DNA of 64,000 nucleotides, taken from NCBI GenBank assembly GCA_030390025.1, contig CM059432.1, forward strand, positions 64,110,001 to 64,174,000, written 5' to 3'. The notes below the pieces were generated by a model that was given only the letters and a program-made list of their open reading frames with translations, searched no databases and was not told the origin of the DNA. The translations under genes were made by a program, and so were the position numbers. Below are positions 3,886 through 58,845 of the stretch, one piece after another. The DNA comes from Squalus acanthias (lineage: Eukaryota). Position 1 is the stretch's first letter. Every line of letters starts with the position of its first letter.

Positions 3886-5697
3886 CTCCAAGATGTAACT
3901 AGTTGGATGGATAAGTGGGAACCAGTGGATGTAGTGTTTGGATTTTCAAAAAGCATTCAATAAGGTGCCACACAAGAGGTTATTACACAAAATTAGGACT
4001 CATGGGATTGGGGATAATATATTAGCATGGATTGAGGATTGGTTAACGGACAGAAAACAGAGAGTGGGAATAAACGGAACTTTTTCGGGTTGGCAGGCTA
4101 TAACTAGTGGGGTACTGCGAGGATCAGTGCTTGGGCCTCAGCTATTTACAATCTACACTAATGACTTAGATGAAGTGACTGAGTGTAACATATCCAAGTT
4201 TGCTGATTATACAAAGTTAGGTGGGAAAGTAAGCTGTGAGGAGGACGCAAAGAGGCTGCAGAGAGATATAGACAGGTTGAGAGTGGGCAATAACATGGCA
4301 AATGGAATACAATGTGGGGAAGTGTGACGTTATCCACTTTGGTAGGAAAAACAAAAAAGCAGAATATTTTTTGAATGGTGAGAGACTGGGAAATATTTGC
4401 ATTCTGAGGGACCTGGGTGTCCTTGTACTTGAATCACAGAAAGTTAACATGCAGGTACAGCAAGCGATTAGGAAAGCAAATGGTATGTTACAAAGGGATA
4501 AGAGTATAAGAGTAAGGGGGGGGGAAATTGGGTTGCTTTGCGCCTCCCGTTAACGCCCTAAGAGGGCGCTAACAGGGCGCAAAGCAATTGGTGCCCGGGC
4601 GTGGCGCTGCCTACGCCTCCCGCAAAATTCAGCGGGAGGTTAGTGGCAGCGCTAACTGTTAGTGCCCCGCAGCGCTGCGCCACCGGCGATGACATCATTG
4701 CCATGCGCAGCGCCCCGCTCGCGCCCCGGCCGCAATCTTCGAGAGCGCCCCCTGACTTACTGCCGGATGCTATGTCCGACGGGGTCAGGGGGGCCTACCT
4801 GCGGCTGGGGAGGCGCTAATTAAAGGTGAGGTGCGGGGTGGCCATTTTTGTTGAGGCAGGTGCTGGCAGGTGGCCAGCACCTGCCTCCGCTCCCGTACCC
4901 GGCCTCCTTACCCGCCCACCCGAGGAGTTCCAGCTGCGCTCCATGAGCCCAGCACTTCTGTTGAGTGCCGGGCTCTTTTGCCAGCACTTCCGATCCCCGG
5001 TGGCCCAGCTGGGCCCCGGGTCACGCTGCGCAAGGCCCCTCCCCTTTAAGAAGGGGAGGAAGGCCTGCAATACCGCGGCGCGACGTGCCACAGCGCATGG
5101 CACTGCGGCACGTAGCGTCGCGATATTCCCTCGCAGCGCCCGTAGCACCCCGCTACCCTCTTGAGGCGCTACCACTCAATTTCCGTCATGGGGGCGCTAA
5201 TTTTTCCGGGGTGCTACCCGGCGAAGTTAGCGCCCCAAAGGGGGCGCTACTCAATTTTTAGCCAAAGAAGTCTTACTACAATTATACAGGGCATGGGTGA
5301 GGTCACACCTGGAGTACTGTGTACAGTTCTGGTCTCCTTACCTAAGGAAAGACATACTTGCCTTAGAGGGAGTGCAACGAAGGTTCACTAGACTGGTTCC
5401 TGGGATGAGGGGATTGCCATATGAGGAGAGATTGAGTAGACTAGCCCTATATTCCTTAGCGTTTAGAAGAATGAGAGGTGATCTAAATGAAACATATAAA
5501 ATTCTTAAGGGGCTTGACAGGGTTAATGCTGAGAAAATGTTTCCCTTGGCTGGGGAATCTAGAACAAGGGATCACAGGGGTCGGCCATTTAGGACGGAGA
5601 TGAGGAGAAATTTCTTCACTCAAAGGGTTGTGAATCTTTGGAATTCTCTACCCCAGAGAGCTGTAGATGCTCAGTTGTTGAGTATATTCAAGACAGA
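3886..5697 (+). mobile_element. CR1 LINE RT/C-terminal fragment, interrupted by MITE 4516-5262
   Basis: [41 protein letters not shown]; reading resumes across the MITE (GAGTAA|..|AGAAGTC). Confidence 0.92.
4516..5262. mobile_element. GC-rich Harbinger MITE, family A, inverted relative to the 5704 and 58283 copies
   Basis: TIRs GGGG..GAAATTGGG / CTCAATTTTTAGCC; TAA/CAA target; internal homology to 5704-6362 and 58283-58845. Confidence 0.85.
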
Positions 5698-5703
5698 GTC
5701 ATG

Positions 5704-6362
5704 GGGGTAAAAATTGGGCAGCGCCCCCTTTGGGGCTAATTTTAGCGCCCTGAAAAAGTTACCGCCCCCGCAGCCGATTTTCCCAGGCAGCGCCCCGAGA
5801 GGGAGGAGGGGCACTACTGGAAGCGCCCCGCGTCCCTCTTGGGGCGCTGCGAGCCAATATCATGGTGCTACGTGCTGCAGTACTGCAGGCCTTCCTCCCC
5901 TTATTAAAGGGGAGGGGCCTGGCGCAGTGTGTCCCGACATCCAGCTGGGCCACCTGGGATCGGGAATGGCGGCAAATGAGCCTGGCACTCGAGGAGTGCC
6001 GGGCTCACGGAGAGCAGCCGGCACCCTGCGAGGTGGGGTTCACGGGGGCTGGGTCAGCAATGGGGGCAGCTGCTGGCAGGCGGCCAGCAAAAAAAATGGC
6101 CGTCCACCACCTCCCCTTTAACTAGCGCCGCCCCGGCCGCAGGTATGCCCCCTGACCCCGGCGGACATGGCGTCCAGCGGTAAGTTGGGGGGCGCCACCC
6201 AATATTACAGCGCGGTGCTAATGGTTAGCGCTGCCGCTAACCTCCCGCTGAATTTCGCAGGAGGCGTTAGCGGCGCCGCGCCCGGGCACTAGTTGATTTG
6301 CGCCCCGTTACCGCCCTCTTAGGGTGTTAACGGGAGGTGCAAATCAACCGAATTTAACCCCC
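5704..6362. mobile_element. Harbinger MITE family A, inserted in a CR1 (ATAGAGTC)n tail
   Basis: TIRs GGGGTAAAAATTGGG / CCGAATTTAACCCCC; flanks ATG/ATA. Confidence 0.85.
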
Positions 6363-6372
6363 ATAGAGTCTT

Positions 6373-7232
6373 GGGGCCCGATTATCGGCCGGGCGCAAAG
6401 TTTAGCGCCTGGCGCTAATTATCGCCTCTGACTGCAAACTTGGCTTTTATCGCCCCTGGAGGTGATTGGAGCGCTAAATCAGGTGCTGCACACCTGTCTT
6501 AAGGCACAAAGGCCGAGGAGCAAGGCGCTAACTCAGAGCGCTGGCAAAGCTCATGTGATGTTAGTCAGCAATGGAACACAGACACACTGACGCCGGCCAG
6601 TTCTTAAAGGGGAGGGTTGATCTTGCTCTCCATCCACACCCTGTTCACTGCAGCCTTGAATCTAGGCCTGGAGAGACCTGTACATCAAATCTGTTGGAAA
6701 GAACAATGGAGAGGCCCAGGGAAAGAGTTCAGAGTGCATACCCCTTAGTCTCTTCTAAATCGATGCTAGGAAGATCAAATAAAAAAGAACCTGCAAAGTG
6801 CTGCTCAGTACCCAAAACTCCTCAACACAGCTCTGAATATCTCCTGCAGTCTCTCTCTCGCACTCAGAATGCGTGGTGAAAAAATTTCGCCGACAAAAAA
6901 AGGCAGGAAGCGGTTGCCTTTAAATAGCACTCCCCCAGTCCCTTCCCAACTGCAAAACACTCCCCTCAACCTGTCGTTGCTAGCGGCAGGCAGTAAGACA
7001 GGGGACGCCACTCAATATCCGGTCCGGGGCGCTACCGGTTGCACGCTCGACTGACATCACGATCTGCTGGCGCAGGAGATTGTGGCGGTACTGTTTAGCG
7101 CCGCCACAAAATGTCTAGTCAATTTCGTGAGCGGAGCAAACATCGCCGCGCACGGGCGCTAGTTGCTTTGCACCCCATTAGCGCCCTCTTAAGGCGCTAA
7201 TGGGAGGCGCAAACCGACCGAATTTTTCCCCC
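6373..7232. mobile_element. Harbinger MITE family B with partly deleted left end, in the next unit of the same CR1 tail
   Basis: Collinear with 52272-53166 and 61244-62115; ends CCGAATTTTTCCCCC followed by ATAGAGTC. Confidence 0.85.
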
Positions 7233-7392
7233 ATAGAGTCATAATGGTACAGAAGGAGGCCATTCAGCCCATCGAGTCCGTGCTGGCTCTCTGCAGAGCA
7301 ATCCAGTCAGTCCCATTCCCCCGCTCTATCCCCATAGCCCTGCAAGTTTATTTCCCTCAAATGCCTATCCAGTCTCCCATTGAAAACATTGA

Positions 7393-7596
7393 TGTGGAGA
7401 TGCCGGTGTTGGACTGGGGTGGACAAAAGTGAGAAGTCGCACAACACCAGGTTATAGTCCAACAGCTTTATTTGAAATCACAAGCTTTCGGAGCGCTGCT
7501 CCTTCGTCAGGTGAAGGATGAAGGAGCAGCGCTCCGAAAGCTTGTGATTTCAAATAAAGCTGTTGGACTATAACCTGGTGTTGTGCGACTTCTCAC
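7393..7596. mobile_element. Penelope-like foldback element with 14-bp TSD and hammerhead core
   Basis: Near-perfect ~80-bp inverted arms (7427-7507 vs 7517-7596); TSD ATTGAAAACATTGA on both sides; empty site visible in the paralogous CR1 at ~58106-58135. Confidence 0.85.
7477..7515 (-). ncRNA. Minimal type I hammerhead ribozyme motif (putative)
   Basis: Minus strand TCAC-CTGACGA-A-GGAGC-AGC-GCTCC-GAAA-GC-TT-GTGA: core boxes, 5-bp stem II, stem I TCAC/GTGA, palindromic AGCT in place of stem III. Confidence 0.65.
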
Positions 7597-9539
7597 TATT
7601 GAAAACATTGAGTGTCTCCGCTTCCACCACTTCCGTCGTCAGCGAGTTCCAGGTCCTCACCACTCGCTGCGTAAAAAAGTTTTTCCTCACATCCCCCCTG
7701 AATCTCTTGCCCAAAACCTTAAATTTGTGTCCCCTCGTCCTTGTACCATCAACTAGTGGGAACAGCCTTTTCCCCGTCTAGCCTATCCAAACCCGTCATA
7801 ATCTTGTACACCTCTATCAAATCACCCCTCAACCTCCTTTGCTCTAATGAAAACAAATCCAGCTTCTCCAACCTTGTAGCTAAGATCCCCTATCCCCGGA
7901 ACCATTCTGGTAAATCTCCTCTGCACCCTCTCAAGGGCCTTCACATCCTTCCTAAAGTGTGGTGACCAGAACTGGATTCAATACTCCAGTTGTAACCTAA
8001 CTAGTGCTTTATAAAGATTCAGCATAACTTCTCTACTTTTGTACGCAATACCTCTATTTATGAAACCCAAGATCCCATATGCTTTGCTAACCACTCTCTC
8101 AATATGTCCTGCCACCTTTAGGGACCTATGCACATTAACTCCCAGGTCCCTCTGTCCCTGCACACTCTTTAAAACTGTGCCATAAATGTATATTGCCTCT
8201 CCCTGTTCCTTCTGCCAAACTGCATCACCTCACACTTCTCTATATTAAATTCCATCTGCCACTTGTCTGCCCATTCTGCTAGCCTTTCTATGTCCTGTTG
8301 CAGTCGATTGGTATCATCCTCACTGTTTGCCACACCCTCAAGTTTGGTGTCATTGGCAAATTTAGAAATTCTACTCTGTATTCCAATATCCAGGTCATTT
8401 ATATATATCAAAAAAAGCAGTGGCCCCAGCACTGACCATTGGGGGACACCACTGTCTACCATCCTCCAGTCTGAAAAACAGCCATTTACCATAACTTGCT
8501 GTTTTCTGTCCTTAAGCCAATTCCTTATCCAAGCTGCCACCTATTCCATGAGCCTCAATTTTGTTAACCAGCCTTCTATGTGGTACTTTGTCAAATGCCT
8601 TCCTAAAATCCATGTGGACAACATCCATTACATTCCCTTCATCGATCCTCCCTGTTACTTCATCAAAAAATTCAATTAGATTAGTCAAACATGATCTGCC
8701 CTTTACAAATCCATGTTGACTCTCCTTAATTAGCTTAAATGTCTCCAAGTGCCCGTTACTTTTTTCCTTGTTTATCGTTTCTAAAACTTTACCAACCACT
8801 GATGTTAAACTGTAATTACTGGGATTGTCCTTACACCCTTTCTTGAACAATGGTGTCACATTTGCCACTTTCCAATCCTCAGGCACCTCCCCTGCATCTA
8901 GGGAAGATTGGAAAATTATGGCAAGCCCTTCCGCTATCTCCTCCCCCAATTCCCTTAGCATTCTGGGATGCAAGCCATTTGAACCAGGTGACTTTTTCAC
9001 TCTAAGCATACCCAGCCTTTCTAGTACATCCTGTCTATCAATTTTCACCCCTTCCATTGCCTCTACCTTTTCCACTGCTACTGATATTTTGTCAGCATCC
9101 ACCTCTTTAGTAAACACCGATACAAAGTACTCATTGAGTATTCTAGCCTTGCCCTGCGCCTCTAAGCATATAACACCTTCTTTGTCTCTAATAGGCCCCA
9201 CCCCGCCTCTTACTACCCGCTTACTGTTTACATGCCAGTAGAAGATTTTTGGGTTCCCTTTTATGTTAACCACCATTCTACTCTCATATTCTCTCTTTGC
9301 CAATCTTATTTTCATCTTCACTTCCCCTCTCAACTAACTGTATTTGGTCTGGTTCTCCCTTGAAGAATTCACCTGACATGCATCATACACCCTCTTTTTT
9401 TGTTTCATCATCTTCTCTATCTCCCTCGTCATCCAAGGAGCCCTTGCTTTGGTTCCCTTACCCTTCCCTCTTGTTGGAATGTACCTAGCCTGTACTTGGA
9501 ACATCTCCTCCTTAAAGATCGCCCATTGTTCCATTACAT

Positions 9540-15309: not shown

Positions 15310-16523
15310 TTAGTTTAAATCCTCCCCCAGAGTACTAGCAAACACTCCACCTAGGACATCGGTCCCGGTCCTGCTCAGGTGCTAACCGTCCGGTTTGTAC
15401 TGGTCCCACCTCCCCCAGAACCGGTTCTTATGTCCCAGGAATTTGAATCCCTCCCCCTTGCACCATTCCTCTAGCCACGTATTCATCTGAAATATCCTTC
15501 TATTTCTTCTCTGACTAGCACGTGGCACTGGTAAGAATCCTGAGAGTACTACCTTTGAGGTCCTATTTTTTTAATTTACCTCCTAACTCCCTATATTCAG
15601 CTTTTAGGACCTCATCCCGTTTTTTACCTATATTGTTGGTACCTATATGCACCACGACAACTGGCTGTTCACCCTCCCCCTCCAGAATGTTCTGCAGCCT
15701 CTCTGAGACATCCTTGACCCTTGCACCAGGGAGGCAACATACCATCCTAGAGTCTCGTTTGCGGCCGCAGAAACGCCTATCTATTCCCCTTACAATAGAA
15801 TCCCCTATCACTATAGCTCTCCCACTCTTTTTCCTCCCTTCCTGTGCAGCAGAAAAACCCTCGGTGCCAGGAAGTTGGCTGCTGCTGCCTTCCCCCGGTA
15901 AGCCATCCTCCCCAACAATATCCAAAGCGGTATATCTGTTTGAGAGGGGGATGGCCACAGGGGACCCCTGCACTACCTGCCTCCGCCTACTGCTCTGCCT
16001 GATGGTCACCCATTCCTTTCTTGCCTGTGCAGCCTTTACCTGCGGTGTGACCAACTCACTAAACGTGCTATCCACGACGTCCTCAGCATCGCAAACGCTC
16101 CAGTATGCATCCACTCGCAGCTCCAGCGCCGCAATGCGGTCTGCCAGTAGCTGCAGCTGGATACACTTCCCGCACAACAATATCCAAAGCGGTATATCTG
16201 TTTGAGAGGGGGATGGCCACAGGGGACCCCTGCACTACCTGCCTCCACCTACTGCTCTGCCTGATGGTCACCCATTCCTTTCTTGCCTGTGCAGCCTTTA
16301 CCTGCGGTGTGACCAACTCACTAAACGTGCTATCCACGACGTCCTCAGCATCGCAAACGCTCCAGTATGCATCCACTCGCAGCTCCAGCGCCGCAATGCG
16401 GTCTGCCAGTAGCTGCAGCTGGATACACTTCCCGCACACATGGTCGTCAGGGACACAGGAAGTGTCCCTGATTTCCCACATAGCGCAGGAGGAGCATAAC
16501 ACGGCGCCGAGCTGTCCTGACAT
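15310..16523 (-). pseudogene. CR1 ORF1 (Cys-rich zinc-binding + coiled coil + SGNH/GDSL esterase)
   Basis: CSSC..CGKC, LELRV coiled coil, LSNRY, IGDSIVRG, HIGTNN. Confidence 0.9.
15913..16436. repeat. 262-bp tandem duplication inside CR1 ORF1
   Basis: 15913-16174 and 16175-16436 are identical except one substitution that I could see (CTCCGCCT/CTCCACCT). Confidence 0.92.
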
Positions 16524-23399: not shown

Positions 23400-26282
23400 C
23401 TGGCCCTATCGCCATATCCCTTGATGCCTTTACTAGTCAGAAAGCTATCGACTTCTGTTTTGAATATACCCAATGACTGAGCCTTCACAGCCCTCTGGGG
23501 TAGAGAATTTCAAAGATTCACCACTTCTCATCTCAGTCCTGAATGGCCTACCCTTTAGCCTGAGGCTGTGGCCCCTGGTTCTAGATTCCCCAGCCAAGGG
23601 AAACATTCTCCCAACATCCACCCTATCAAGCCCTGTAATAATTTTGTATGCTTCAAGAGAATACAGGCCTAGTTTATCTCTTCTCATACGACAGTCCCGC
23701 CATCCCAGGAATCAATCTCGTGAACCTTTGTTGCACTCCCTCTATGGCAAGTATATCCTTCCTTAGGTAAGGAGACCAAAATTGTACACAGTACTCCAGG
23801 TGTGGTCTCATCAAGGCCCTATATAATTGGAGTAAGATTTCTTTACTCCTGTACTCAAATCCTCTTGTAATGAAGGCCAGCATTCCTAATGGCTTGCTGC
23901 ACCTGCACATTCACTTTCAGTGACTCATGTACAAGGACACCCAGGTCCTTTTGAGCATCTGCATTCCCCAATCTTTCACCATTTAGGAAATACTCTGCCT
24001 TTCTGTTTTTCTACCAAAGTGGATAACTTCACATTTATCTACATTATATTCCATCTGCCATGTTCTTGCCCACTCACTGAGCCTATCGAGTTCCCCTTAA
24101 AGCCTCTTCACATCCTCTTCACAACTGACACTGCCACCTAGCTTTGTATCATCAGCAAATTTGGAAATGTTATATTTAGTCCCCTCATCCAATTCATTGA
24201 TATAGATTGTGAATAGCTGGGGCCCAAGCACCGATCCTTGCAGTACCCCACTAGTCACAGCATGCCATCCTTAAAAAGACCCGTTTATCCCTACTCTTGT
24301 TTTCTGTCTGTTAACCAATTCTCAATCCATGCTAGTAAATTACCCTCAATTCCATGTGCCCTAATTTTGTTCACCAACCTCTTGTGTGGGACCTTATCGA
24401 AGGCCTTCTGAAAATCCAAATACACCACATCTACCGGTTCCCCTTTGTCTACTCCACTAGTTACATGCTCAAAGAACTCCAATAGGTTTGTCAAACAGGA
24501 TTTCCCTTTCATAAATCCATGTTGACTCTGCCTAATCTTACTATTAGTTTCTAAGTGCCCAGTTATTGCATCCTTTATAATAGATTCCAGCATTTTCCCA
24601 GCTACTGATGTAAGGCTAACAGGTCTGTAGTTCCGTTTTCTCGCTCCCTCCTTTCTTAAATAGCGGGGTTACATTTGCTATCCTCCAATCTGCAGGAACC
24701 ATTCCAGAATCTATAGAATTTTGGAAGATGACAACCAATGCGTCCATTATCCCAATGGCCACCTCTTTCAAAACCCTAGGATGTAGGTCATCTGGTCCTT
24801 GGCATTTATCGACTTTTAGTCCCATTAATTTTGCTAGTACTGTTTCTGTAATAATCTTTAAGTTCCTCATTCTCGTCACACCCTTGGTTTTCTCATATTT
24901 CTGGGAGGTTTTTTGTGTCTTCCTCCGTGAAGACAGAAACAAAGTATTTATTTAATTTCTCTGCCATTTCCTCATTCCCCGTTATAAATTCTCCCGTCTC
25001 TAACTGTAAAGGACCTACATTTACCTTCGCCAGTCTTTTCCTTTTCACAGACCTATAGAAGCTTTTACAATCTGTTTTTATATTTTTCGCCAGTTTGTGC
25101 TCATAATCCATTTTCCCTTTCTTTATCAATTTCTTGGTTCCCCCTTTGCTGATTTCTAAAAAGATCCCAATCGTCAGGCTGACCGCTTTTTCTGGCAACT
25201 TTATAAGCTTCCTCCTTTGACTTAATACTAGCTTTAATTTCTTTTGTTAGCCATGGTTGGATCATTTTTCCTTTTGGGTTTTTATGCCCTAGAGGAATAT
25301 ATGTTTGTTGCAAATTATGCATTATTTCCTTGAATGTTAGCCATTGTATGTCCACCTTCATACCTTTTAGTGTAGTCTCCCAATCTACCATGGCCAACTT
25401 GTCCCTCATACCCTTGTAGTTTCCTTTGTTTAGATTGAAGACCTTAGTTTCAGATTGGACTACATCACTCTCAAACTTAATGTAAAATTCAATCATATTA
25501 TGGTCACTTGTCCCTAAAGGCCTCTTTACCACAAGATTATTGATTAGCCCTTTCTCATTACACAGTACCAGATTCAGAATAACCTTTTCCCTGGTTGGTT
25601 CCTCCACATACTGATCCAGGAAAACATCTCGCATGCATTCCAAGAATTCGTCCTCCACACCATTAGTGGTTATTTGATTTGCCCAGTCAATATGTAGATT
25701 AAAGTCCCCCATGATTACCGTATTGCCCTTGTTACATGCACTTCTAATTTCATGATTGGTACTGTGCCCTACATTACCACTCCTGTTTGGTGGCCTATAC
25801 ACAACTCCCACCAATGTTTTCCTCTCTTTGCTGTTTCTTAGCTCCACCCAAATTGATTCCAGTTCGACATCACGATCTGCCAAGCCAAGATCTTTTATCT
25901 CTACCGTACCGATCTCATCCCTTATTAACAGCGCTACGCCACCTCCTTTTCCTTTCTGTCTGTCCTTCCTAAATGTTGAGTACCCTGGAACATTCAGTTC
26001 CCAGCTTTGGTTACCCTGCAACCATGTCTCTGTAATGGCAATTACATCATACCCATTTACTTCTATTAGTGCCATTAATTCATCCACCTTGTTGCGAATG
26101 CTACGTGCATTTAGATAAAGTGCCTTCAACTTTGCCTGTTTAATATTTTTCTGCACTTTGACCCTCTTTACTGTTGGCCTTTGTTTCTGCTCCCTACTAG
26201 TTTTGCTGACTACTTTTCTAACTTGCACTTCCAGCTTTGTTTCTCTCCATTCTGGGCCCACAGGTTCCCAGCCCCCTGACAA
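23400..26282 (-). pseudogene. CR1 ORF2 (APE + RT), frameshifted
   Basis: LNARSIRNK, ITETWL, GDFN, SDHN, QHGFMKGKSCLTNLLEFF, HLEYCVQFWSP. Confidence 0.92.
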
Positions 26283-26283
26283 A

Positions 26284-27234
26284 CTAGTTTAAATCCTTCC
26301 CAACAGCACTAGTAAATCCCCCTGCGAGGATATTGGTCCCGGTTCTGCCGAGGTGTAATCCGTCTAGCTTGTACAGGTCCCACCTTCCCCAGAATCGGTC
26401 CCAATGCTTCAGGAATTTAAATCCCTCCCTCCTACACCATCTCTCCAGCCATGCATTCATCTGGTCTATTCTCCTATTTCTGCTCTCGCTAGCATGTGGC
26501 ACTGGGAGCAATCCTGAGATTACTACTTTTGAGGTCCTGCGTTTTAATTTATTTCTTAGCTCCCTATATTCTGCTTGCAGGACCTCGTCCCTCTTTCTAC
26601 CTATGTCGTTGGTACCGATATGGACCACGACCTCTGGCTGTTCACCCTCCCCCTTCAGAATGTCCTGCAGCCACTCAGTGACATCGTTGACACAGCCACC
26701 AGGGAGGCAACATTCCATCCTGGAGTCACGTCTGCGGCCACAGAAACGTCTATCTGTTCCCCTTATGATAGAATCCCCTATCACTATTGCTCTCCCACTC
26801 TTTTTCCTCCCCTCCTGTGCAGCTGAGCCACTCGTAGTGCCACGGACTTGGCTCTTGCTGCATTCCCCTGAGAAACCATCTCCCCCAGCAGTATCCAAAA
26901 CAGAAAATCTGTTGGAGAGGGAGATGGACCCGGGGACTCCTGCACTACCTTCCTAGTTATTTTACTCTGTCTGGCAGTCACCCATTCACTTTCTGCCTGT
27001 GTACTCTTTACCTGTGGTGTGACCCACCTCATTAAACGTGCTATCCACGTAGATCTCAGCCTTGCGGATGCTCCACAGTGACTCCAGCCGCAGCTCCAGA
27101 TCCGAAACGCGGATTTCGAGTCGTTGCAGCTGGAGATACTTCCTGTACACGTGTTCGCCCTGGACACCAAAAGTGTCCCTGACTTCCCACATAGCACAGG
27201 AGGAGCACTCCACGCTGCCGAGCTGCCCTGCCAT
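26284..27234 (-). pseudogene. CR1 ORF1 with SGNH esterase (frameshifted)
   Basis: GDS, GxND and DGLH esterase blocks present. Confidence 0.9.
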
Positions 27235-33561: not shown

Positions 33562-34230
33562 GCGTTTCTACCCCCAGAGTATGACGGGGTAATATAAGTC
33601 TCAATTATACTCTGTAAACTGCTGCTCGAGCACTGTAATGTATTGTCTTGCTGGTGCTGAATAAAGTTAAATCACTGTCACCAATACAGGTCAACCTCGA
33701 ATCTTTCGAACCAGGGTCCCTCTGGGATCTTACAAATTGGTGAGCCTAAGCTGGGAGGTTGATTGACAGTTGATTCTTTTATGAACTATTCAGTGCAAAT
33801 AAGATCCTAGCACTGGCATGGTTAGCGCGACCTAGCCAGTTAAGGAAGGGAACCTTCGGGGTGTGTCGGACACTGCGACCTACCAGTAGTAATAGCAATG
33901 AGTTAGTAGAAATAGCGGGCTTGACAGAAGTTGAGCATGTCCAGGGATGAAGATTTCGGAAATTTATGTGTAACTGATTTAGTATCATTTCTGACAAGTC
34001 CGGAAGGCGATTCATATCAGAAGGAGATAGAGTGGGTCCAGTGCCACATGTCTCTGGGAAAGGTCAAATTAGACAAAGTGAAGCGTTGTTAGGCTATGCA
34101 GCCCGTTTCTGTGTGCAGCGCGGTGAAGTAAGAGAAGAGAAACATTTCGAAACTCAGAGAATAAGAGTAGAGAAACATTTAGAAGCACAGAAAATAAGAG
34201 AAGGGGAACATTTGGAAGCAAGGAGGGAGG
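33562..34230 (+). mobile_element. LTR 3' part, PBS-like site and decayed gag-like start of an LTR retroelement
   Basis: TATAA (~33593), AATAAA (33660), ..TTACA end (33733), then TGGTGAGCC (partial tRNA-Arg-like PBS); 33-bp charged repeats REEKHFETQRI/RVEKHLEAQKI. Confidence 0.4.
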
Positions 34231-34244
34231 TGTACAGCAGGATG

Positions 34245-34418
34245 GTGCACAGGAGGAAGCTGCACAGGAGGGAGCTGCACAGGAGGGAGCTGCACAGGAG
34301 GGAGCTGCACAGGAGGGAGCTGCACAGGAGGCAGGTGCTCAGGAGGGAGGTGCTCAGGAGGGAGCTGCACAGGAGGGAGCTGCACAGGAGGGAGGTGCTC
34401 AGGAGGGAGGTGCTCAGG
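34245..34418. repeat. 15-bp minisatellite AGGAGGGAG(C/G)TGC(A/T)C, ~11 copies
   Basis: Direct reading. Confidence 0.95.
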
Positions 34419-34439
34419 TGAGAGGTGCACAAGAGGGAG

Positions 34440-35930
34440 GCTGAGGTCGCAGGAAGCACTTATACTTCCTATTGCTTCTACGTGGTACATCCCTTGTGGC
34501 TTCAGCAGAAGTAGAGGCAGGCTGCTCAGATCCCTGCCCTGACTGCTGAGATGCTATTGGCCGACTCGCTCTGTGTTTTGGAGCTCCTGAGAGCCCTGCC
34601 AAAGACTGCTCCACCTGCAACTGTGCAGGGGCAGACTAGGCCGTTGGGACACGAGGCAGCTTGTCGGGTATTGACTGGGTGGGGGGGGGTGGGGGGGGGG
34701 GCAACGTGTGAGAAGTGGAAGCGCTTTGAGCGGAGTCCCCACTTCCATGTCCCATTTCGCCTTTATCCCTCTTCTGGGCTAGTGCCACATCACTCCTACC
34801 ACTTCGCTGCAGACCAGCTTGGCGGAGATCGGTAATGTCTTGTAAGGCCAAGGATATGGTATCTGTCATCTTGTTTAAGGTGGCAGACAAGTTGGCATCC
34901 AAAGTCTGCATGGCCGTGGTAATGGTCTACATGGACTCATTTGGGATTCGTGCTTGAAGCTCCATGGAGGCGACCACTCTCTCTGTGGCAGACATTCTCG
35001 TAATTCCCTGCGCCACCAATCCAGTAACGATCGAGTTGGACTCCTCCATCCTCTCCGCTATTGTGAAGAGTGTGTGTGGCACGTCTGTCAGTACCTGGCT
35101 AAGTTCCTGATGTACCTCTAGCATTCTCCTTCTCAACGATAGCCCCCGGGGTTCAGCATCTGTGTCCAGCTGAGCAAAGCTTGGAGAGGGTTGTGTCCCC
35201 TGACGCGGAGTCTCCACAGCTGTCCCTGCCACCAGTGTCTGCTCATGCTTACTTGTGAGGTGTGAATTGCCAGGTGAAAACCCAACTGTCTAAGTGGACC
35301 CAATGAAGAGCAAGTATCTGCACTGCTGCATGGCTATATGTCCTGTGACGGTGCACTCTCAGAAGGAATGAGATCCTCTGATGAATTGTCCTCATGGATG
35401 TCCTGCGACACTTACGTGAAGGCCCTGGAAGACAAAAGAAAAGGATATGATTTATTTGTGTTTAGGTGATTAAACTGCTTCCTACATTACATCCATGACC
35501 TGGGAACAACGCTTCTACAGCTCACCTCCCCAGCTACCTCCCAGCATGACTTATTGGTGTGAGCAGCAGGTTTCTTGCTCCCATTGCTGGGGAAAAATAT
35601 GTCCCACGTTCTTCTCCTGACTGCACCCAGCAGTAATTCCAGCGAGGTGTCATTAAACCTGGGTGTTGCCCTTGCTCTAAGTCCACCATCCAACCTGAAC
35701 ACCCCCAATTTCCATTTGTGCACTGTTCCTTTAAATTCCGCTGAGATTGGGTCATGTGGGTATGCATCACACCTGCTGTGCAGCTTGGAAATGCGGAACT
35801 CGGAAGTCAAAATTAATTAGTACAATTCAGTGTAGATCACAGGTTCCGACCCGCTCAGTTGACTTCTGGGTTTCCCCAACGCAATTTCATTCCCTTGCTC
35901 GGAAGCCACCTTCATATTAATATCAAGGCC
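34440..35930 (-). pseudogene. Harbinger Myb/SANT-like partner gene (spliced, decayed) with transposon end at ~35930
   Basis: RARATPRFNDTSLELLLGAVRRR..IFFP....W.EVAGEVS..SVVPRSW SANT-like domain; acceptor TTTTCTTTTGTCTTCCAG at ~35425; coiled-coil exon; TIR-like GGCCTTGATATTAA next to TAA. Confidence 0.8.
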
Positions 35931-47605: not shown

Positions 47606-50600
47606 TTAGGAGGTGTGGACGAGACGGTGCGGCGGTCTGATGGGCCGGCCGGAGCGGCTCTTGTAGGACGCCGGTGGACGTGGAACGGCCGGGCGTGGAG
47701 CAGCCGGGTGAACTGGCTTGAGGGCAGGTCGGCCGCGTGGCGGTGGACGAGCTACAGGGACCTGCTCACCGGGCTCCGAGTGTGCTGGCTTGAGTCGGTC
47801 AACCGACACTTTTTCGGTCCTGTCGCCCACTTGCAGGGTGAAAAATTTGTCCCCAGCCTGTAGCACCTTGTAGGGCCCATCGTACGGGGGTTGAAGGGGT
47901 CCGCGGTGGGCATCGTGCCGGACGAAAACGAACCGTGCCTGGTGCAGGCTTAGTGGGACGTGTGAGGTGGATTCGACGTGTCGGGCAATGGGCACCGGGA
48001 CGAACTGTAGCGCCGGTGAGGCGAAGTCGTGGCGTTGCTGGTCGGCTGACCAGGGTGTCGTGGCGGTGGGCAGGAACTCGCCGGGTACGCGCAGCGGCTG
48101 ACCGTACATGAGCTCTGCTGCCGATGCGTGGAGGTCTTCTTTAACCGCGGTGCGCAGGCCGAGGAGGACCCACGGGAGTCGGTCGGTCCAGGCGCCGTCC
48201 TGGAGGCTGGCTCGAAGAGATGCCTTCAAGGATCTGTGGAACCGCTCACACAGTCCGTTGGCTTGGGGTGGTACGCTGTGGTGCGGTGAATGGTCACCCC
48301 AAGATTGCGTGCGACGGCGGTCCAGAGTTCAGAGGTAAATTGCGGACCTCTGTCTGACGTCATGTCGGAGGGGACGCCGAACCGTGCGACCCAGGTGCTG
48401 ACGAAGGCTCTGGCGATGTTGGCGGTGGTGGTAGAGGTCAGTGGAATTGCCTCAGGCCAGCGCGTGGTGCGGTCAACGATCGTCAGCAAGTGCGTGTGGC
48501 CTTGCGACGACGGCAGGGGCCCGACGATGTCCATGTGGATGTAATCGAATCTACGCGAAGGGACGGTAAACTCCTCGAGGGGTGCTTTCGTGTGTTGCTG
48601 CACCTTGGCCCATTGGCAGGCTAGGCAGGAGTTGGCCCAAGTACGCACATCCTTGCGAAGGCCACGCCAGACAAAACGGTTGGCTACCAATTTGATGGAT
48701 GCGCAGGCGCCGGGGTGGGAGAGGTTGTGGAGAATCTCGAATACCCGGCGGCGCCAGGACGCTGGGACGACGGGCCGAGGTTGACGTAGAGATATGTCGC
48801 ACTTGACCGTGACTGCGGTCGGGCCACAGGCGACGTCGGCCAGGCGTAGCCCTGGTAGGTTGGTAGGTGCGGAGAGCAGATCAGGGTCGGTGATCTGGTC
48901 TGCTGCGAGTTGAGCGTAGTCGACCGCCAGGTGTGCGGCGTGGATGGCGGGGCGGGAGAGGCAGTCGGCTACCGCATTGTCTCGGCCGGAGACGTGTTGG
49001 ATGTCCGTGGTGAACTCGGACACTGCCGCGAGCTGGCGCTGCTGCCTGGTGGACCAGGGATCGGTTGTCTTTGCCATTGCGAATGTCAGGGGTTTGTGGT
49101 CGACAAACGCAGTGAAGGGGTGGCCCTCCAGCAAAAACCGAAAATGGCGGACCGCCAGGAACAGCACGAGGAGCTCGCGGTCGAAGGTGCTGTACTTGAC
49201 CTCCGGGGGGCGTAGTTGGCGGCTGAAGAAGGCAAGTGGTTGCCAGGCCCCGTCGAACCACTGCTCATACACGGCGCCGACCGCGTGGTCGGAGGCGTCC
49301 GTGGTGAGCGCTACCCTGGCATTGGGCCGTGGGTGCACGAGCAGGGTGGCGTTGGCGAGCGCGGTCTTGGTGGAGTCGAAGGCGGCTGACGCGTCTGCCG
49401 TCCATTCAACCGCCATCTTGCTGCTCCTGCCCCGGAGGGCTTCATACAGGGGCCTCATGAGGGACGTCGCTTTGGGGATGAAGCGGTTGTAGAAATTCAC
49501 CATCCCGAGGAACTCCTGGAGGCCTTTGATGGTGGTGGGGCGGGGAAATTGTTGGACAGCCTGCACCTTGGTGGGCAGGGGAATGGCCCCAGCATGGGTG
49601 ATGTGGTGGCCGAGGAAGTCGATCTTGTCCAGGCCGAACTGGCATTTGGCTGGGCTGAGGATGAGCCCGTGGTCGCTGAGGCGCCCGAACAGGATGCGAA
49701 GGTGTTCGAGGTGTTCCTGCTTGGAGGAACTGGCTACCAGGATGTGGTCCAGGTAGACAAACAGGAACTTCAAGTCCTGAAGGACTGATGCCATGAGCCA
49801 TTGGAATGCCTGGGCCGCGTTTTTGAGGCCGAAGGGCATCCGCAGGAACTCGAAAAGGCCGAAGGGGGTGATTACGGCCGTCTTGGGGACGTCCGCGGGG
49901 TGGACGGGGACTTGGTGGTAGCCGCGCACCAGGTCGACCTTGGAAAAGACTGAGCGGCCGGCCGGTCTAGCCGAGAAGTCCTGGATGTGCGGCACGGGGT
50001 ACCGATCAGGGGTGGTGGCGTCGTTGAGGCGGCGGTAATCCCTGCAGGGGCGCCAACCCCCGCCTGGTTTGGGGGCGATGTGGAGTGGGGAGGCCCAGGG
50101 ACTGTTGGAGCGGCGGATGATGCCGAGCTGTTCCATGGTGGCAAACTCGGTCCGTGCGATCTCCAGTTTGGCCGGGTCCAGCCTGCGGGCGTGGGCGTAC
50201 ACTGGGGGGCCTGTGGTGGGGATGAAGTGTTCCACCCCGTGTTTGGCGGCCTCCGCGGAGAAGGTCGGATTGGTAAGGGCCGGGAATTCGGCCAGGAGTG
50301 CCGAGTAGTCATCCGTGGCCTGGGCGTGGCACTGTGACGCCATGTCGGTGGGTGTACGGGGGGCCATGGCGCCCAGGATGGGGGACATGGTGTTCATGTC
50401 CACGAGGCGGTGTCGAGGGATGTCTACCAGTAGGCCGTGGGCGCACAGGAAATCTGCGCCGATGAGAGGGGAGAGCACCTTGGCAGTGATGAACTCCCAT
50501 CAGTAGCGGCGACCAGCGAGGTCGAGGGTGACTGTGCGGGTGCCGTACGTCCGGATGTCTGAGCCATTAGCAGCAGCCAGCGCCGGTCCTCGTTCGCCCT

Positions 50601-51417
50601 TTTGGATGTCGAGGGCGGAGGCCGGGATGATGCTGTGCTGAGCTCCAGTGTTGCACAGGAACCGACGGCCGGTTTTGTCATCTGTGACGTACAGCAGGGA
50701 GCCCGCGTGGCCCACGGCCATCGCGGGGGCTGGTACGGGGGCGGACTTGAAAGAGCAGGGAGGTGTGCACCGTTGTGCCCTGGCGCCGAACCGTGCGTGG
50801 TAGTAACAGTGGCCCGGGTTAGTGGGGCACGAAGGCCCCGTGAGCCCGGTGGCTGGGCCTTGTGGCCACGTGGTGGCCGGTGAGGGGTGCGCCCAGGCAG
50901 TGGCTGCCAGGTCCGGACTGATGTCGCGGCTGGAGTGAGCGGACAGCAGCTTGTCGGCCTCATCGGCCAGGGCTTCCAGGTCCATGAGGCCGGACGCCAC
51001 GATCGCTGGGCGAATGCTGAGACGTAGCTGGCGGATGATCAGCGTGCGGAAGAGGGATCCGGGTGGGCTCTCGTCGGTGAGGGAGAGCATGTGGGAGAGG
51101 AGGTCTGACGGTGAGGCATCACCGAGGCCTGGAAGGTCGAGGAGGTGGCAGTTTCGCTGGTATGTTGAGGCCGTAAATTTTTTAAGGAGCGTGGCCTTAA
51201 GATGTGCATACTTGCCCTCCTCTGGTGGGTTCTGCAGCACTGTCCAGACCTTCGTAACTGTGGAGCTACTGAGTGATGTGACGAGGTAGTCGTACTTCGT
51301 CCCATCTGTGGTGATGTGTCGCAGCCGGAATCGGGACTCGGCTTGGAGGAACCAGGCTTCGGGCTGGTTTTCCCAAAACGCCGGCAGTTTCATGGAAACT
51401 GCGTTCGTGTCCGCCAT
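47606..51417 (-). pseudogene. Gypsy gag-pol polyprotein with few lesions
   Basis: Gag KLPAFW..PEAWF, CYYH-x9-C-x3-C; protease LCNTGA (D>N); RT YLDH (D>H); RNase H TDAS; integrase HHCC, D,D35E, GPY; TGA at 50500-50502 and 1-bp frameshift near 48265. Confidence 0.93.
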
Positions 51418-51442
51418 TGCAGTGCTCGGAATACGTTCTGAG

Positions 51443-51456
51443 CGTCGGGGTCACCA
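51443..51456 (-). promoter_or_regulatory. Primer-binding site complementary to tRNA-Trp 3' end
   Basis: TGGTGACCCCGACG directly after the 5' LTR. Confidence 0.85.
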
Positions 51457-52271: not shown

Positions 52272-53166
52272 GGGGGAAAAATTCAGTCGCGCCCCGTTTG
52301 GGGCGCAAATATCGGCCGGGCGCAAAGATTAGCGCCTGGCGCTAATTATCGCCACTGACTGCAAACTTGACTTTTATCGCCCCTGGAGGTGATTGCAGCT
52401 CTAAATCAGGCGCTTCACACCTGTCTTAAGGTGCAAAGTCCGAGGAGCGAGGCGCTACCTCAGAGCGCTGGCGAAGCTCATGTAATGTCAGTCAGCAATG
52501 GAACACACACACAATGGCACGGGCCAGTTCTTAAAGGGGATGGTTAATCTTGCTTTCCATCCACATCCTGCTCATTGCAGCCTTGAATCTCGGCCTGGAG
52601 AGATTTGCACATCAAATGTGCCGGAAAGAACAATGGAGAGTACCAGGCAAAGAGCTCAGAGTGCAGCCCCCACAGTCTCTGCTAAATCGTTACAAGGAAT
52701 GGCAAATCAAAATGAACCTGCAAAGTGCTGCTCAGTACCCAAAACTCCTTCACACAACGTTGAATCTCTCCCCAGAAGTCTCTCCCTCTCTCTCTCAGAA
52801 TGCGTAGTTCAAAAATGGCACCAACAATAAAAGGCAGGAAGCGGTCACCTTTAAATAGCGCTCCCCCTTTCCCTTCATGACTGCAGAACGCTCCCCTCAA
52901 CCTGTCATTGCTAGCGTCAGGTGGTAAGGCAGGGGGCGCCACTAAATATCCGCTCTGGGGCAATACCGGGGCGTTGCGCACTCGAGTGACGTCATGATCT
53001 GCCGGCGCAGGAGATCGCGGCGATAAAGTTTAGCGCCGCCGCAAAATGTCTAGTTAAGTTCGCGGGCGGCGCAAACATCGCTGCGCCCGGGCGCTAGCTG
53101 CTTTGCGCCCCATTAGCGCCCTCTTAAGGCGCTAACGGGAGGCGCAACCAACTGAATTTTTCCCCC
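52272..53166. mobile_element. Harbinger MITE family B, complete (895 bp)
   Basis: TIR GGGGGAAAAATTCAGT / ACTGAATTTTTCCCCC perfect; TSD TAA. Confidence 0.93.
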
Positions 53167-53663
53167 TAAGTCTTTAGCCAGTTTATTGAAATTAGCCCTC
53201 CTGAAGTTAGGAACCAACATTAAATTGTTAATAGCTTTTGCTTGGCTCATAAGATTTAATTATATTATGATCACAGCTACCCTGGTGTTCCCCCATATGG
53301 AGTTGCGATAGGTCAAACATTTGAAATCCCCTAATCACATCACTAACATGTTGAGTTAAAATCAATCATTTATTGTATCCACAAATGTTCCAGCTAATTT
53401 GCCCACCACACCTGATGGTTCATTGTCAGTCCATTTTTATACAAAAGAAAGTTGAAGTCCCCCAAGATACAGACATGACCTAATCTAGAAGCTGTAACAT
53501 TTTCTGAGCAAAGGGCCTCATTTCCAAGAGGTCCTTGTCCTGAAACAGGTCTATACCAGGTCCCAATTATTAAATTAGAGCCATCAGCTTGAATTAATTG
53601 TACTCAGATAGATTCAGTTGCTGTCGATGTAACAATATCATTTCTTACCAGAGTAGATAGATT

Positions 53664-57150: not shown

Positions 57151-57414
57151 CCCTCTAAAATGGCCTAGCAAGCCACTCAGTTGTACCAAACTGCTACGAA
57201 TAATAATAAGAATAAAACCGGATGGACCACCCGGCATTGACCTAGGCACCGACTTCAGACACAACAGCGGCACACCCAGCCCTGTCGACCGTGCAAAGTC
57301 CTCCTGACTAACACCTGGGGAATTGTACCAAAATTGGGAGAGCTGTCCCACAGGCTAGTCAAGCAACAGCTTGACATAGCCATGCTCACAGAATCATACC
57401 TTTCAGCCAATGTC

Positions 57415-58282
57415 GACTGCAACAGGACATAGAAAGGCGAGCAGAATTGGCAGACAAGTGGCAGATGGAATTTAATACAGATAAGTGTGAGGTGATGCAT
57501 TTTGGCAGAAGGAACAGGGAAAGGCAATATACACTTAATGGCACAGTTTTAAAGAGTGTGCAGGGACAGAGGGACCTGGGAGTTAATGTGCATAGGTCCC
57601 TGAAGGTGGCAGGACATATTGAGAGAGTGGTTAAAAAAGCATATGGGATCTTGGGCTTCATAAATAGAGGCATGGAGTACAAAAGTAGAGAAATTATGCT
57701 GAACCTTTATAAAGCGCCGGTTAGGCCACAACTGGAGTATTGCGTCCAGTTCTGGTCACCACACTTTAGAAAGGATGTGAAGGCCTTTGAGAGCATGCAG
57801 AGGGGATTTACCAGAATGGTTCCGGGGATGGGGGATCTTAGCTACAAGGACAGGTTGGAGAAGCTGGAATTGTTTTCATTAGAGCAAAGGAGGTTGAGGG
57901 GTGATTTGATAGAGGTGTACAAGATTATGACGGGTTTGGATAGGCTAGACGGGGAAAGGCTGTTCCCACTAGTTGATGGTACAAGGATTAGGGGACACAG
58001 ATTTAAGGTTTTGGGCAAGAGATACAAGGGGAATGTGAGGAAAAACTTTTTTTGCACGGCGAGTGGTGAGGACCTGGAACTCGCTGCCGACGGAAGTGGT
58101 GGATGCGGAGACACTCAATGTTTTCAAGGGGAGATTGGATAGGCATTTGAGGGAAATAAACTTGCAGGGCTATGTGAATAGAGCGGGGCAATGGGACTGA
58201 CTGGATTGCTCTACAGAGAGCTGGCATGGGCTCGATGGGCCGAATGGCCTCCTTCTGTGCCGTAATGACTCTATGACTTTAT
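57415..58282 (+). mobile_element. 5'-truncated CR1 with (GACTCTAT)n tail, tail resuming at 58846
   Basis: ORF 57447-58142 WADKWQMEFN...RPQLEYCVQFWSP; ATGTC at both junctions. Confidence 0.93.
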
Positions 58283-58845
58283 GGGGGGGGTGGGCGCCCC
58301 AAAAAAGTTAGCGCCCCCACGGCCAATTTTCCCAGATAGTGCCCCGAGAGGGAGGAGGGGCGCTACTGGAAGCGCCTCGCGTCCCACTTGGGGCGCTGTG
58401 AGCCAATATCGCAGCGCTATGTCCCGCAGCGCCACGCCCTGTGGCACATCGCGCCGCAGTACTGCAGGCCTTCCTCCCCTTATTAAAGGGGAGGGGCCTG
58501 GCGCAGCGCATCGCAGTGCCCAGCTGGGCCACCAGGGGTCGGGATTGCCAGCAAACGAGCCCGGCACTCATGAGGAGTGCCGGGCTCACGGAGAGCAGCC
58601 GGCACCCCGCACGGGGGCTTCACAGGGGCCGGGGACAGCAACAGGGTTAGGTGCTGGCAGGCGGCCAGCAACAAAAATGGCCGCCTGCCATCTTCCCTTT
58701 AACTAGCGCCGCCCCGGCCACAGGTAGGCCCCCTTGACCCCGGCAGCCATAGCGTCCGGTTGTAAGTCGGGGGGGCGCCAGCCAATATTACAGCCGAGGC
58801 GCGAGCGGGGCGCTGGGAGGTGCAAATCAACTGAATTTAACCCCC
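58283..58845. mobile_element. Harbinger MITE family A (internally deleted) in a CR1 tail
   Basis: TSD TAT; right TIR CTGAATTTAACCCCC; homologous to 5704-6362. Confidence 0.88.

What the first reader, a model, noticed from the sequence alone, without database searches (positions are those of the whole stretch)
7379..7610. 204-bp foldback mobile element carrying a minimal hammerhead ribozyme, with 14-bp TSD
Seen: near-perfect ~80-bp inverted arms flanked by a duplicated ATTGAAAACATTGA. The sister CR1 at ~58106-58135 has one copy of that site, so this is a real, discrete insertion. The minus-strand arm reads TCAC-CTGACGA-A-GGAGC-AGC-GCTCC-GAAA-GC-TT-GTGA; the plus-strand arm has lost the CT of the core. 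Established: Penelope-like elements carry minimal type I hammerheads in their pseudo-LTRs and often have inverted 5'-truncated ends. Inference: stem III is reduced to the palindrome AGCU, so cleavage (after CUU) would need two copies to dimerise. A transcript through this site would also form an ~80-bp dsRNA hairpin.
Basis: partly seen in the sequence, partly recalled or inferred. Interest (0 to 1): 0.7.

Follow-up and report, generated by a model that had tools for sequence, protein, structure and literature searches.

The report
Palindromic stump of a Penelope retroelement
This 205-base hairpin-shaped insertion is most likely two cut-short copies of the end of a very abundant Penelope-like jumping gene, laid head to head in a pattern already described for that class, and the ribozyme motif it carries is probably a locked-up passenger rather than a working part.

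Summary
A 205-bp insert (7393-7597) lies between exact 14-bp duplications in the 3' end of a CR1-type LINE. It has 78-bp perfect inverted arms and one minimal hammerhead on the minus strand that fits the published Penelope consensus. Public runs show a very high-copy family with two classes of 3' end, at the tail end and the tail start, each joined to varied flanks. Other copies have other hairpin centres. So this is a doubly 5'-truncated PLE insertion (tailed copy plus inverted tail-less copy), not a fixed foldback element. I favour priming from both nicked target strands at the two known RT start sites (about 0.55); snap-back copying is the main rival. In any transcript of the locus the hammerhead is predicted to be trapped in the hairpin (about 48 kcal/mol), and the second copy lacks its core. 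A link to an RT + GIY-YIG ORF could not be tested. The scan found this pattern before in other genomes. Known kind, low interest.

The parts
7232..7392 (-). Host CR1-type LINE, 3' end (last codons of ORF2 and 3' UTR), downstream of the insertion
   Evidence: 91% identical to the sister copy 58275-58115; its translation continues the ORF2 C-terminus
7379..7392 (.). Left target-site duplication, 14 bp; its last 3 bases are shared with the element's tail (microhomology)
   Evidence: the family aligns out to 7390 and its loose ends start there
7393..7427 (-). 35-bp 'tail', present on one arm only; 3' end of the element's sense strand
   Evidence: outside the inverted repeat; family ends cluster at 7390 and 7425; 30-40 bp tail described for PLEs
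7428..7516 (-). First arm: 5'-truncated 3' end of the pseudo-LTR, sense on the minus strand; holds the hammerhead and an AATAAA 10 nt past helix I
   Evidence: the family continues past 7516 (loose ends)
7478..7514 (-). Minimal type I hammerhead motif; predicted cut between 7482 and 7481
   Evidence: fits the consensus in Fig. S3 of PMC4209133; activity untested
7506..7525 (.). Centre: head-to-head junction. Either a blunt join at 7516/7517 with U at N7 in the second arm, or a 4-bp microhomology (7513-7516 with 7502-7505) plus a 7-bp tandem duplication (7512-7518, 7519-7525)
7517..7597 (+). Second arm: inverted, tail-less, more truncated copy (81 bp) that starts at G5 of the hammerhead core; dead as a ribozyme
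   Evidence: 80 of 81 complementary to 7428-7508
7598..7611 (.). Right target-site duplication, 14 bp, identical to the left
7612..8307 (-). Host CR1-type LINE, upstream part (continues to about 9300; RVT_1 at 8515-9333)
   Evidence: 93% identical to the sister 58127-57413; Pfam RVT_1, E 1e-07

Best explanation
What it is (about 0.88): a young, doubly 5'-truncated insertion of an endonuclease-bearing Penelope-like retroelement into the 3' end of an older CR1-type LINE. It consists of one copy of the pseudo-LTR 3' end with the 35-bp tail (124 bp) and an inverted, tail-less copy (81 bp), joined head to head and flanked by a 14-bp duplication. How it arose (about 0.55; inferred): the element's RT/GIY-YIG protein nicked both strands of an AT-rich target 14 nt apart. 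One 3' end primed cDNA at the tail end of the RNA, helped by a 3-bp microhomology. The other primed cDNA at the tail start. Both cDNAs stopped early, in or just past the hammerhead, and were end-joined. This resembles L1 twin priming, except that both start sites are fixed and the cDNAs overlap completely, which needs two RNAs or strand displacement on one. Both cDNAs cross the predicted cleavage site, so the templates were uncleaved or re-ligated. The hammerhead is a passenger at this locus: one copy is locked in the hairpin and the other is decapitated. Shown: anatomy, duplication, motif, high-copy family, two end classes, varying centres. Inferred: PLE membership, order of steps, number of RNA templates, inactivity.
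For: One-sided 35-bp extension plus inverted truncated copy plus TSD is the described PLE architecture (PMC3846280 passages; PMC8557442 passages). The Anolis PLE protein cuts and extends both strands, prefers ATT, and starts RT at two sites that bound the tail (PMC11167929); both edges of this TSD carry ATT/AAT. In one search the family is very abundant (19544, 12466 and 2522 contigs laid in X2, X5, X14, LINE flank included; 9 reads in X21). Its best-supported loose ends are at 7390 (140, 126, 29 contigs, 3 reads) and 7425-7427 (67, 41, 4 contigs), with low agreement (0.37-0.41, except 0.57 for the 4 contigs and 0.76 for the 3 reads), which means many unrelated flanks. The family continues past 7516 (65, 39, 12 contigs). 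The 2 opposite-strand joints among the 10 listed (7426 to 7516 in X5, 7424 to 7495 in X14) and 1 loose end at 7480 (X14) show inverted arms holding sequence that the first arm lacks, which copying of the first cDNA cannot give. Summed depth shows no step at the cleavage site (X2: 3.87, 3.64, 3.38 million over 7474-7494). Hammerhead variants listed are tolerated ones: H17 U to C (5-26% of depth) and loop II insertions (2-6% each); none at 3% or more in GAAA, 15.2-16.1 or helix II. Locked fold.
Against: No RT + GIY-YIG ORF could be linked: no genome is held, none of 33 ORFs of 150 aa or more in the window hit a GIY-YIG family, and two protein searches with the insert's open frame gave nothing real. 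The centre has a 4-bp snap-back microhomology, and the arms are identical at family-variable sites where this copy has a 35-48% allele (7466, 7429); both fit copying of one arm from the other. The three junctions against snap-back are single contigs laid at 80% likeness, their orientation is read from side lengths, and nested insertions or deletions in a hairpin could mimic them. One listed variant (7479; 4-7%) breaks a helix I pair with no compensation seen. Conservation of the core half is not significant once the equally invariant tail is counted (Fisher p 0.12; 0.03 without the tail). Variants close to the alignment end are clipped, so CUGANGA conservation and covariation are untested. Only 19 of 382 loose-end rows were shown, and contig depth is not copy number.
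Confidence: 0.8

Rival explanations
1. Same PLE stump, different mechanism: a single cDNA primed at the tail end stops at 7516, snaps back on itself through a 4-bp match, and is extended as a hairpin; the endonuclease then resolves the intermediate at the tail boundary, giving a tail-less inverted arm. A 7-bp slippage explains the centre.
For: 7513-7516 is complementary to 7502-7505, and 7512-7518 is repeated at 7519-7525. The arms are otherwise identical. PMC3846280 reads inverted junctions as self-priming (on an antisense template) and PMC8557442 ascribes the tail to endonuclease-mediated resolution.
Against: The 4-bp snap-back is not in the minimum-energy DNA fold of 7490-7516. Three contigs of the family show inverted arms longer than the first arm. 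In vitro, both target strands are extended and RT starts at both tail boundaries.
Confidence: 0.3
2. A self-contained non-autonomous foldback element (MITE-like or palindromic SINE/retrozyme-like) that moves as a 205-bp unit, with the hammerhead processing its RNA as a dimer.
For: Compact, near-perfect palindrome with a TSD. Non-autonomous hammerhead-bearing PLE derivatives exist (bioRxiv 10.64898/2026.07.22.740005). One inverted joint in X5 has depth 135, against 5-34 for the other listed joints, so some inverted forms may recur.
Against: The inverted repeats are not terminal (35-bp one-sided tail). No listed joint repeats this centre, and depth falls where the window leaves the family (partly an edge effect). 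Retrozymes are defined as tandem repeats with two complete hammerheads; this has one, in inverted context, and it is locked.
Confidence: 0.07
3. Post-insertion rearrangement or assembly artefact: a longer insertion with inverted ends collapsed by deletion, two separate insertions at one site, or a palindrome made during sequencing or assembly.
For: No listed contig spans the locus. Long inverted repeats are deletion-prone (general knowledge).
Against: One clean TSD brackets both arms, each outer end falls at a family-wide end class, and the arms match at 80 of 81 positions. An artefact would not give a one-sided tail or a duplicated target. Collapse of a longer inverted insertion cannot be excluded and would not change the classification.
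Confidence: 0.08

Closest known systems
Insertions of endonuclease-positive Penelope-like elements with an inverted 5'-truncated pLTR and a 30-40 bp tail (Adineta Pen2a_Av, PMC3846280; general scheme in PMC8557442; passages read)
   Same: Head-to-head inverted pLTR copies, a tail at the 3' end of only one, the whole bracketed by a TSD.
   Different: No ORF or second direct pLTR between the arms, so the whole insertion is 205 bp; the TSD is 14 bp against 8-10 bp in the rotifer cases.
Minimal hammerheads (min-HHR) of metazoan PLE pseudo-LTRs (PMC4209133; main text parts 1-2 of 4 and supplement parts 1-2 of 3 read)
   Same: U-rich leader, 4-bp helix I, CUGANGA plus an extra base, G10.1-C11.1, GAAA, palindromic 15-16 positions, UH, AU-rich trailer. 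Helix I equals that of the lamprey Poseidon motif. The paper already notes pairs of min-HHRs 100-700 bp apart on opposite strands.
   Different: None of the 56 motifs in its Fig. S3 is from a cartilaginous fish. Here the second motif is decapitated and the two overlap in one hairpin.
PAc, the Poseidon-clade PLE of Anolis carolinensis (PMC11167929; parts 1-2 of 4 read)
   Same: Two RT start sites bounding the tail downstream of the hammerhead; AT-rich, ATT-bearing targets; uncleaved RNA as template.
   Different: In PAc the ORF starts at helix II; here all three sense frames meet a stop within the 133 bases translated, so the clade is not assigned.
L1 twin priming (as described in PMC12016303; passages)
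   Same: Two oppositely oriented cDNAs primed from the two target strands inside one TSD.
   Different: In L1 the second start is variable and overlaps are short (median 12 bp); here the second start is a fixed family site and the overlap is the full 81 bp.
Non-LTR retrozymes (bioRxiv 10.64898/2026.07.22.740005; part 1 of 5 and passages)
   Same: Short, non-coding, type I hammerhead, PLE-derived.
   Different: Retrozymes are head-to-tail tandem repeats with a complete hammerhead in each unit; this is an inverted pair with one complete motif.

Membership tests
EN+ Penelope-like element insertion | Belongs to a family whose full-length form has one ORF with a PLE-type RT and a GIY-YIG endonuclease | not testable with these tools
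   No genome held; no GIY-YIG hit in 33 of 33 window ORFs of 150 aa or more; peptide searches uninformative. Earlier scan notes report intact PLEs with hammerheads in this genome, unchecked and not shown to be this family.
EN+ Penelope-like element insertion | 30-40 bp tail at one end only | tested here: met
   35 bp, 7393-7427; two family end classes at 7390 and 7425
EN+ Penelope-like element insertion | Inverted 5'-truncated copy adjoining the 5' end | tested here: met
   7517-7597; the family extends further 5' than either arm
EN+ Penelope-like element insertion | Target-site duplication in AT-rich DNA, with an empty site elsewhere | tested here: met
   43 and 27 contigs run across the empty site
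Minimal type I hammerhead (min-HHR) | Core CUGANGA, GAAA, UH with helices I and II, extra base after A9, G10.1-C11.1, palindromic 15-16 | tested here: met
   against the consensus
Minimal type I hammerhead (min-HHR) | Conservation and covariation across copies | tested here: inconclusive
   Listed variants fall on H17, loop II and one helix I base; no compensatory change seen; 5' core not assessable; p 0.03 or 0.12 depending on the background
Minimal type I hammerhead (min-HHR) | Self-cleavage as a dimer or with protein help | not testable with these tools
   Needs a bench assay; published min-HHRs are weak or protein-assisted
Rfam hammerhead families | Covariance-model match | tested here: not met
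   No hammerhead family among 13 matches or 2 matches at E up to 10
Non-LTR retrozyme | Tandem repeats with at least two consecutive complete hammerheads | tested here: not met
   One complete motif in the window; no tandem array at the locus
MITE / foldback DNA transposon | Terminal inverted repeats at both ends of a fixed-length unit | tested here: not met
   One-sided 35-bp tail; centres vary among copies
microRNA precursor | Rfam score at the family threshold; imperfect conserved hairpin | tested here: not met
   12 of 13 matches are miRNA models, all below gathering (best 63.3 against 140 bits); generic hairpin matches

The most novel reading that the evidence does not exclude
These stumps are an in vivo record of how PLEs make their inverted ends: a dimeric RT-endonuclease primes from both nicked strands at two hard-wired RNA start sites, and whether the first cDNA stalls at the second primer (tail-only arm plus inverted arm) or runs through it (full palindrome, as here) sets the outcome. 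That would unify the tail, the inverted pLTR and the two in vitro start sites into a programmed form of twin priming, and thousands of genomic copies would make it directly countable. I did not find this model in print (search: 2 papers, listing only, neither on PLE insertion by title; papers read).
Probability: 0.45. Interest if true: 0.5.

Novelty: new member of a known kind. Interest (0 to 1): 0.24.

Why it matters
As a single locus it matters little: it is one of very many truncated copies in a transposon-rich stretch with no host gene found among the long ORFs. As a class, such minimal insertions are clean evidence on an open question, how Penelope-like elements generate inverted ends and a one-sided tail, because both cDNA start points and both stop points are visible within 205 bp. 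They would also be ready-made 80-bp dsRNA sources if transcribed, which is not shown here.

Tried and rejected
Whole-genome census: no genome held. Other copies in the window: none by blastn. Pattern scans of viral contigs and metagenome contigs: 0 matches each. Look-up of the sequence among earlier findings: 0 windows; none near the locus. ORF linkage through the insert's longest open frame: no hit among longer proteins (1 candidate, none at E up to 1); the single phmmer hit P0001 is a 4818-aa tandem-repeat protein matched at about 24 bits per repeat, rejected as score inflation. Rfam: no hammerhead model; miRNA matches rejected as generic hairpin hits. The 5 A>G places in X14 are not read as editing: all five also occur in the DNA-type runs. 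Using depth to infer that the first TSD base is private to this LINE copy was rejected (edge effects); it rests on one sister copy. The joints listed with letters between their sides have no stated orientation and were not used. Supplements of PMC11167929 held as text gave no hits; its figures, and the supplements of the bioRxiv preprint, were not seen and may bear on the junction model.

Full report
1. The observation. The 14-mer occurs at 7379-7392 and 7598-7611 and nowhere else on either strand of the window. The insert between the copies is 205 bp. Arms 7428-7505 and 7520-7597 are perfectly complementary over 78 bp, and 80 of 81 when extended inward; no other close-set perfect inverted run of 20 bp or more exists in the 64 kb. 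The minus strand folds at -154.3 kcal/mol, z = -27.9 against 200 shuffles. The flanks are the 3' end of a CR1-type LINE on the minus strand: 802 matches, 53 mismatches and 10 gap columns against a sister copy at 57413-58275, with RVT_1 upstream. The sister has the site once and differs at its first base; both duplicated copies have the host's base, as expected of a true duplication. The name CR1 rests on the Pfam domains of the window's LINEs and on recall.

2. The hammerhead. On the minus strand, 7514-7478 reads as helix I (4 bp), CUGACGA, an extra A, helix II (5 bp, 3-nt loop), GAAA, GC, UU and helix I again. My descriptor found this one hit in the window and none in 40 resampled windows. 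It fits the min-HHR consensus in Fig. S3 of PMC4209133, including the U-rich leader, the extra base after A9, G10.1-C11.1 and the palindromic 15-16 positions; the lamprey Poseidon motif has the same helix I. Rfam has no matching hammerhead model. The plus-strand arm starts at G5 and cannot be a ribozyme. In a 311-nt minus-strand transcript the free fold is -186.9 kcal/mol and the fold with the ribozyme helices enforced is -139.1; the 10.1-11.1 pair has probability near 0 in the full transcript and in four nascent prefixes, against 0.57 in the single arm. Published min-HHRs show no cleavage as monomers and little as dimers, and the Anolis motif needs the element's protein and is dispensable for insertion in vitro. 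So the motif is real by sequence, untested by function, and probably inert here.

3. Bases 7393-7427 lie inside the duplication but outside the inverted repeat. A 30-40 bp tail on one end, with an inverted 5'-truncated copy at the other, is the described signature of PLE insertions (passages of PMC3846280; PMC8557442; PMC8969392). For the Anolis element the tail is the stretch between two RT start sites, and the protein cuts and extends both target strands with a preference for ATT (PMC11167929).

4. The family. No genome was held and collection scans found nothing, so I laid 4 of 24 listed runs on 7320-7519 at 80% likeness. X2, X5 and X14 gave 19544, 12466 and 2522 contigs (LINE flank included), most at 95% likeness or more in X2 and X5; X21, another organism, gave 9 reads. 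Of 382 loose-end rows, 19 were shown. They place element ends at 7390 (140, 126, 29 contigs; 3 reads) and at 7425-7427 (67, 41, 4 contigs), mostly with agreement near 0.4, meaning unrelated flanks; X5 also has 22 at 7420. Earlier scan notes report a Tx1 element that targets one base of a Penelope tail in this genome (unchecked); a single such family would give high agreement, so it cannot be the bulk of these ends. The tail aligns out to 7390, three bases into the duplication, a microhomology with the target. The family continues past 7516 (65, 39, 12 contigs), so both arms here are 5'-truncated. Depth shows no step at the predicted cut, so copies do not mostly begin there. Two of 10 listed joints change strand (7426 to 7516, 7424 to 7495), and one loose end at 7480 continues with sense sequence from upstream of the hammerhead. 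I read these as inverted insertions with other centres, the first two having a tail-only first arm. None of the listed joints repeats this locus's centre, and no listed piece spans the stretch.

5. Variation in the motif. Listed variants are H17 U to C (10.6%, 26.2%, 4.6% of depth in X2, X5, X14), one-base insertions in loop II (2-6% each in X2 and X5) and a helix I change at 7479 (7.4% in X2, 4.8% in X5) without visible compensation. No substitution is listed for 7483-7503, against 11 of 54 places in 7428-7481 (p 0.03), or 11 of 89 if the invariant tail is counted (p 0.12). A contig with U at N7 appears as unaligned letters, not as a variant, so changes near 7516 are clipped and the 5' core cannot be judged. 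Result: compatible with constraint, not proof.

6. Mechanism. Best reading: both target strands nicked 14 nt apart; the top strand primed at the tail end, the bottom strand at the tail start; both cDNAs truncated (at 7516 and at the equivalent of 7508) and joined. Both cross the cleavage site, so the templates were uncleaved or re-ligated. L1 twin priming is the nearest model, but there overlaps have a median of 12 bp (PMC12016303). The centre can be parsed as a blunt join with U at N7 (a CpG site, or a family variant), or as a 4-bp microhomology plus a 7-bp duplication; the second parse and the identity of the arms at variable sites keep snap-back copying alive. The three contigs whose inverted arm holds sequence absent from the first arm favour independent priming on RNA, but they are few. 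I put two-strand priming at about 0.55 and snap-back at about 0.3.

7. Membership and novelty. Tail, inverted truncated copy, duplication and min-HHR are met. The defining ORF is untested: no GIY-YIG hit in 33 of 33 long ORFs, and peptide searches were empty or spurious. Earlier notes describe intact, young PLEs with paired hammerheads in this genome and the same short palindromic insertions in two other genomes, which they call shark; these are unchecked AI notes. One of them gave me the lead to PMC3846280 and the reading that the mirror half is built anew at each insertion, which partly supports. That such repeats are abundant in sharks is otherwise my recall. The 56 motifs of Fig. S3 in PMC4209133 include no cartilaginous fish; the retrozyme preprint surveys one. 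Papers seen: PMC4209133 (parts 1-2 of 4, supplement parts 1-2 of 3), PMC11167929 (parts 1-2 of 4, supplement search), the retrozyme preprint (part 1 of 5, passages), PMC8557442, PMC3846280, PMC8969392, PMC12016303 and 10.1101/2024.12.14.628481 (passages; the last not used), others as search listings only.

8. Verdict. Real, correctly linked to PLEs, but an ordinary truncated insertion of a described architecture rather than a new foldback element with a working ribozyme. New member of a known kind; interest 0.24.

Noticed in passing
window 7516: This copy's first arm stops at 7516, and an inverted arm in X5 (depth 135) starts at the same base; the family has a 5-nt direct repeat there. Possibly a preferred truncation point just upstream of helix I.
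   Followed up: no
window 7379-7381: The base by which the host LINE differs from its sister turns CTT into ATT at the edge of the duplication, the motif the Anolis PLE protein cuts best. Rests on one sister copy.
   Followed up: partly
window 7477-7310, minus strand: The insert's longest open frame (29 codons) runs on in frame into the last codons of the LINE ORF2; no sign that it is used.
   Followed up: partly
window 7467-7472 (minus) and 7553-7558 (plus): An AATAAA lies 10 nt past the hammerhead in each arm, so the insert offers a candidate poly(A) signal on both strands.
   Followed up: no
window 47609-51450, minus strand: LTR retroelement coding region: DUF7041 ORF followed by RT, RNase H and integrase domains in a 757-aa frame, in Gypsy-type order.
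   Followed up: no
window 26287-26952 and 25104-26288, minus strand: LINE with a GDSL esterase ORF1 followed by an endonuclease frame; several related LINE copies at 12.3-16.2 kb, 23.3-27.2 kb and 40.5-42.8 kb.
   Followed up: no
window 4500-7230, 52300-53200, 58300-58800, 61270-62120: A family of GC-rich interspersed repeats with internal inverted segments of about 150 bp (for example 4518-4670 with 6210-6362) flanks several LINE ends; class not determined.
   Followed up: no
window 34129-34440: Purine-rich minisatellite: 33-bp unit (2.8 copies) followed by a 15-bp unit (14.7 copies).
   Followed up: no
window 15913-16438: Near-perfect 262-bp tandem duplication (99%) inside a LINE 5' region.
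   Followed up: no
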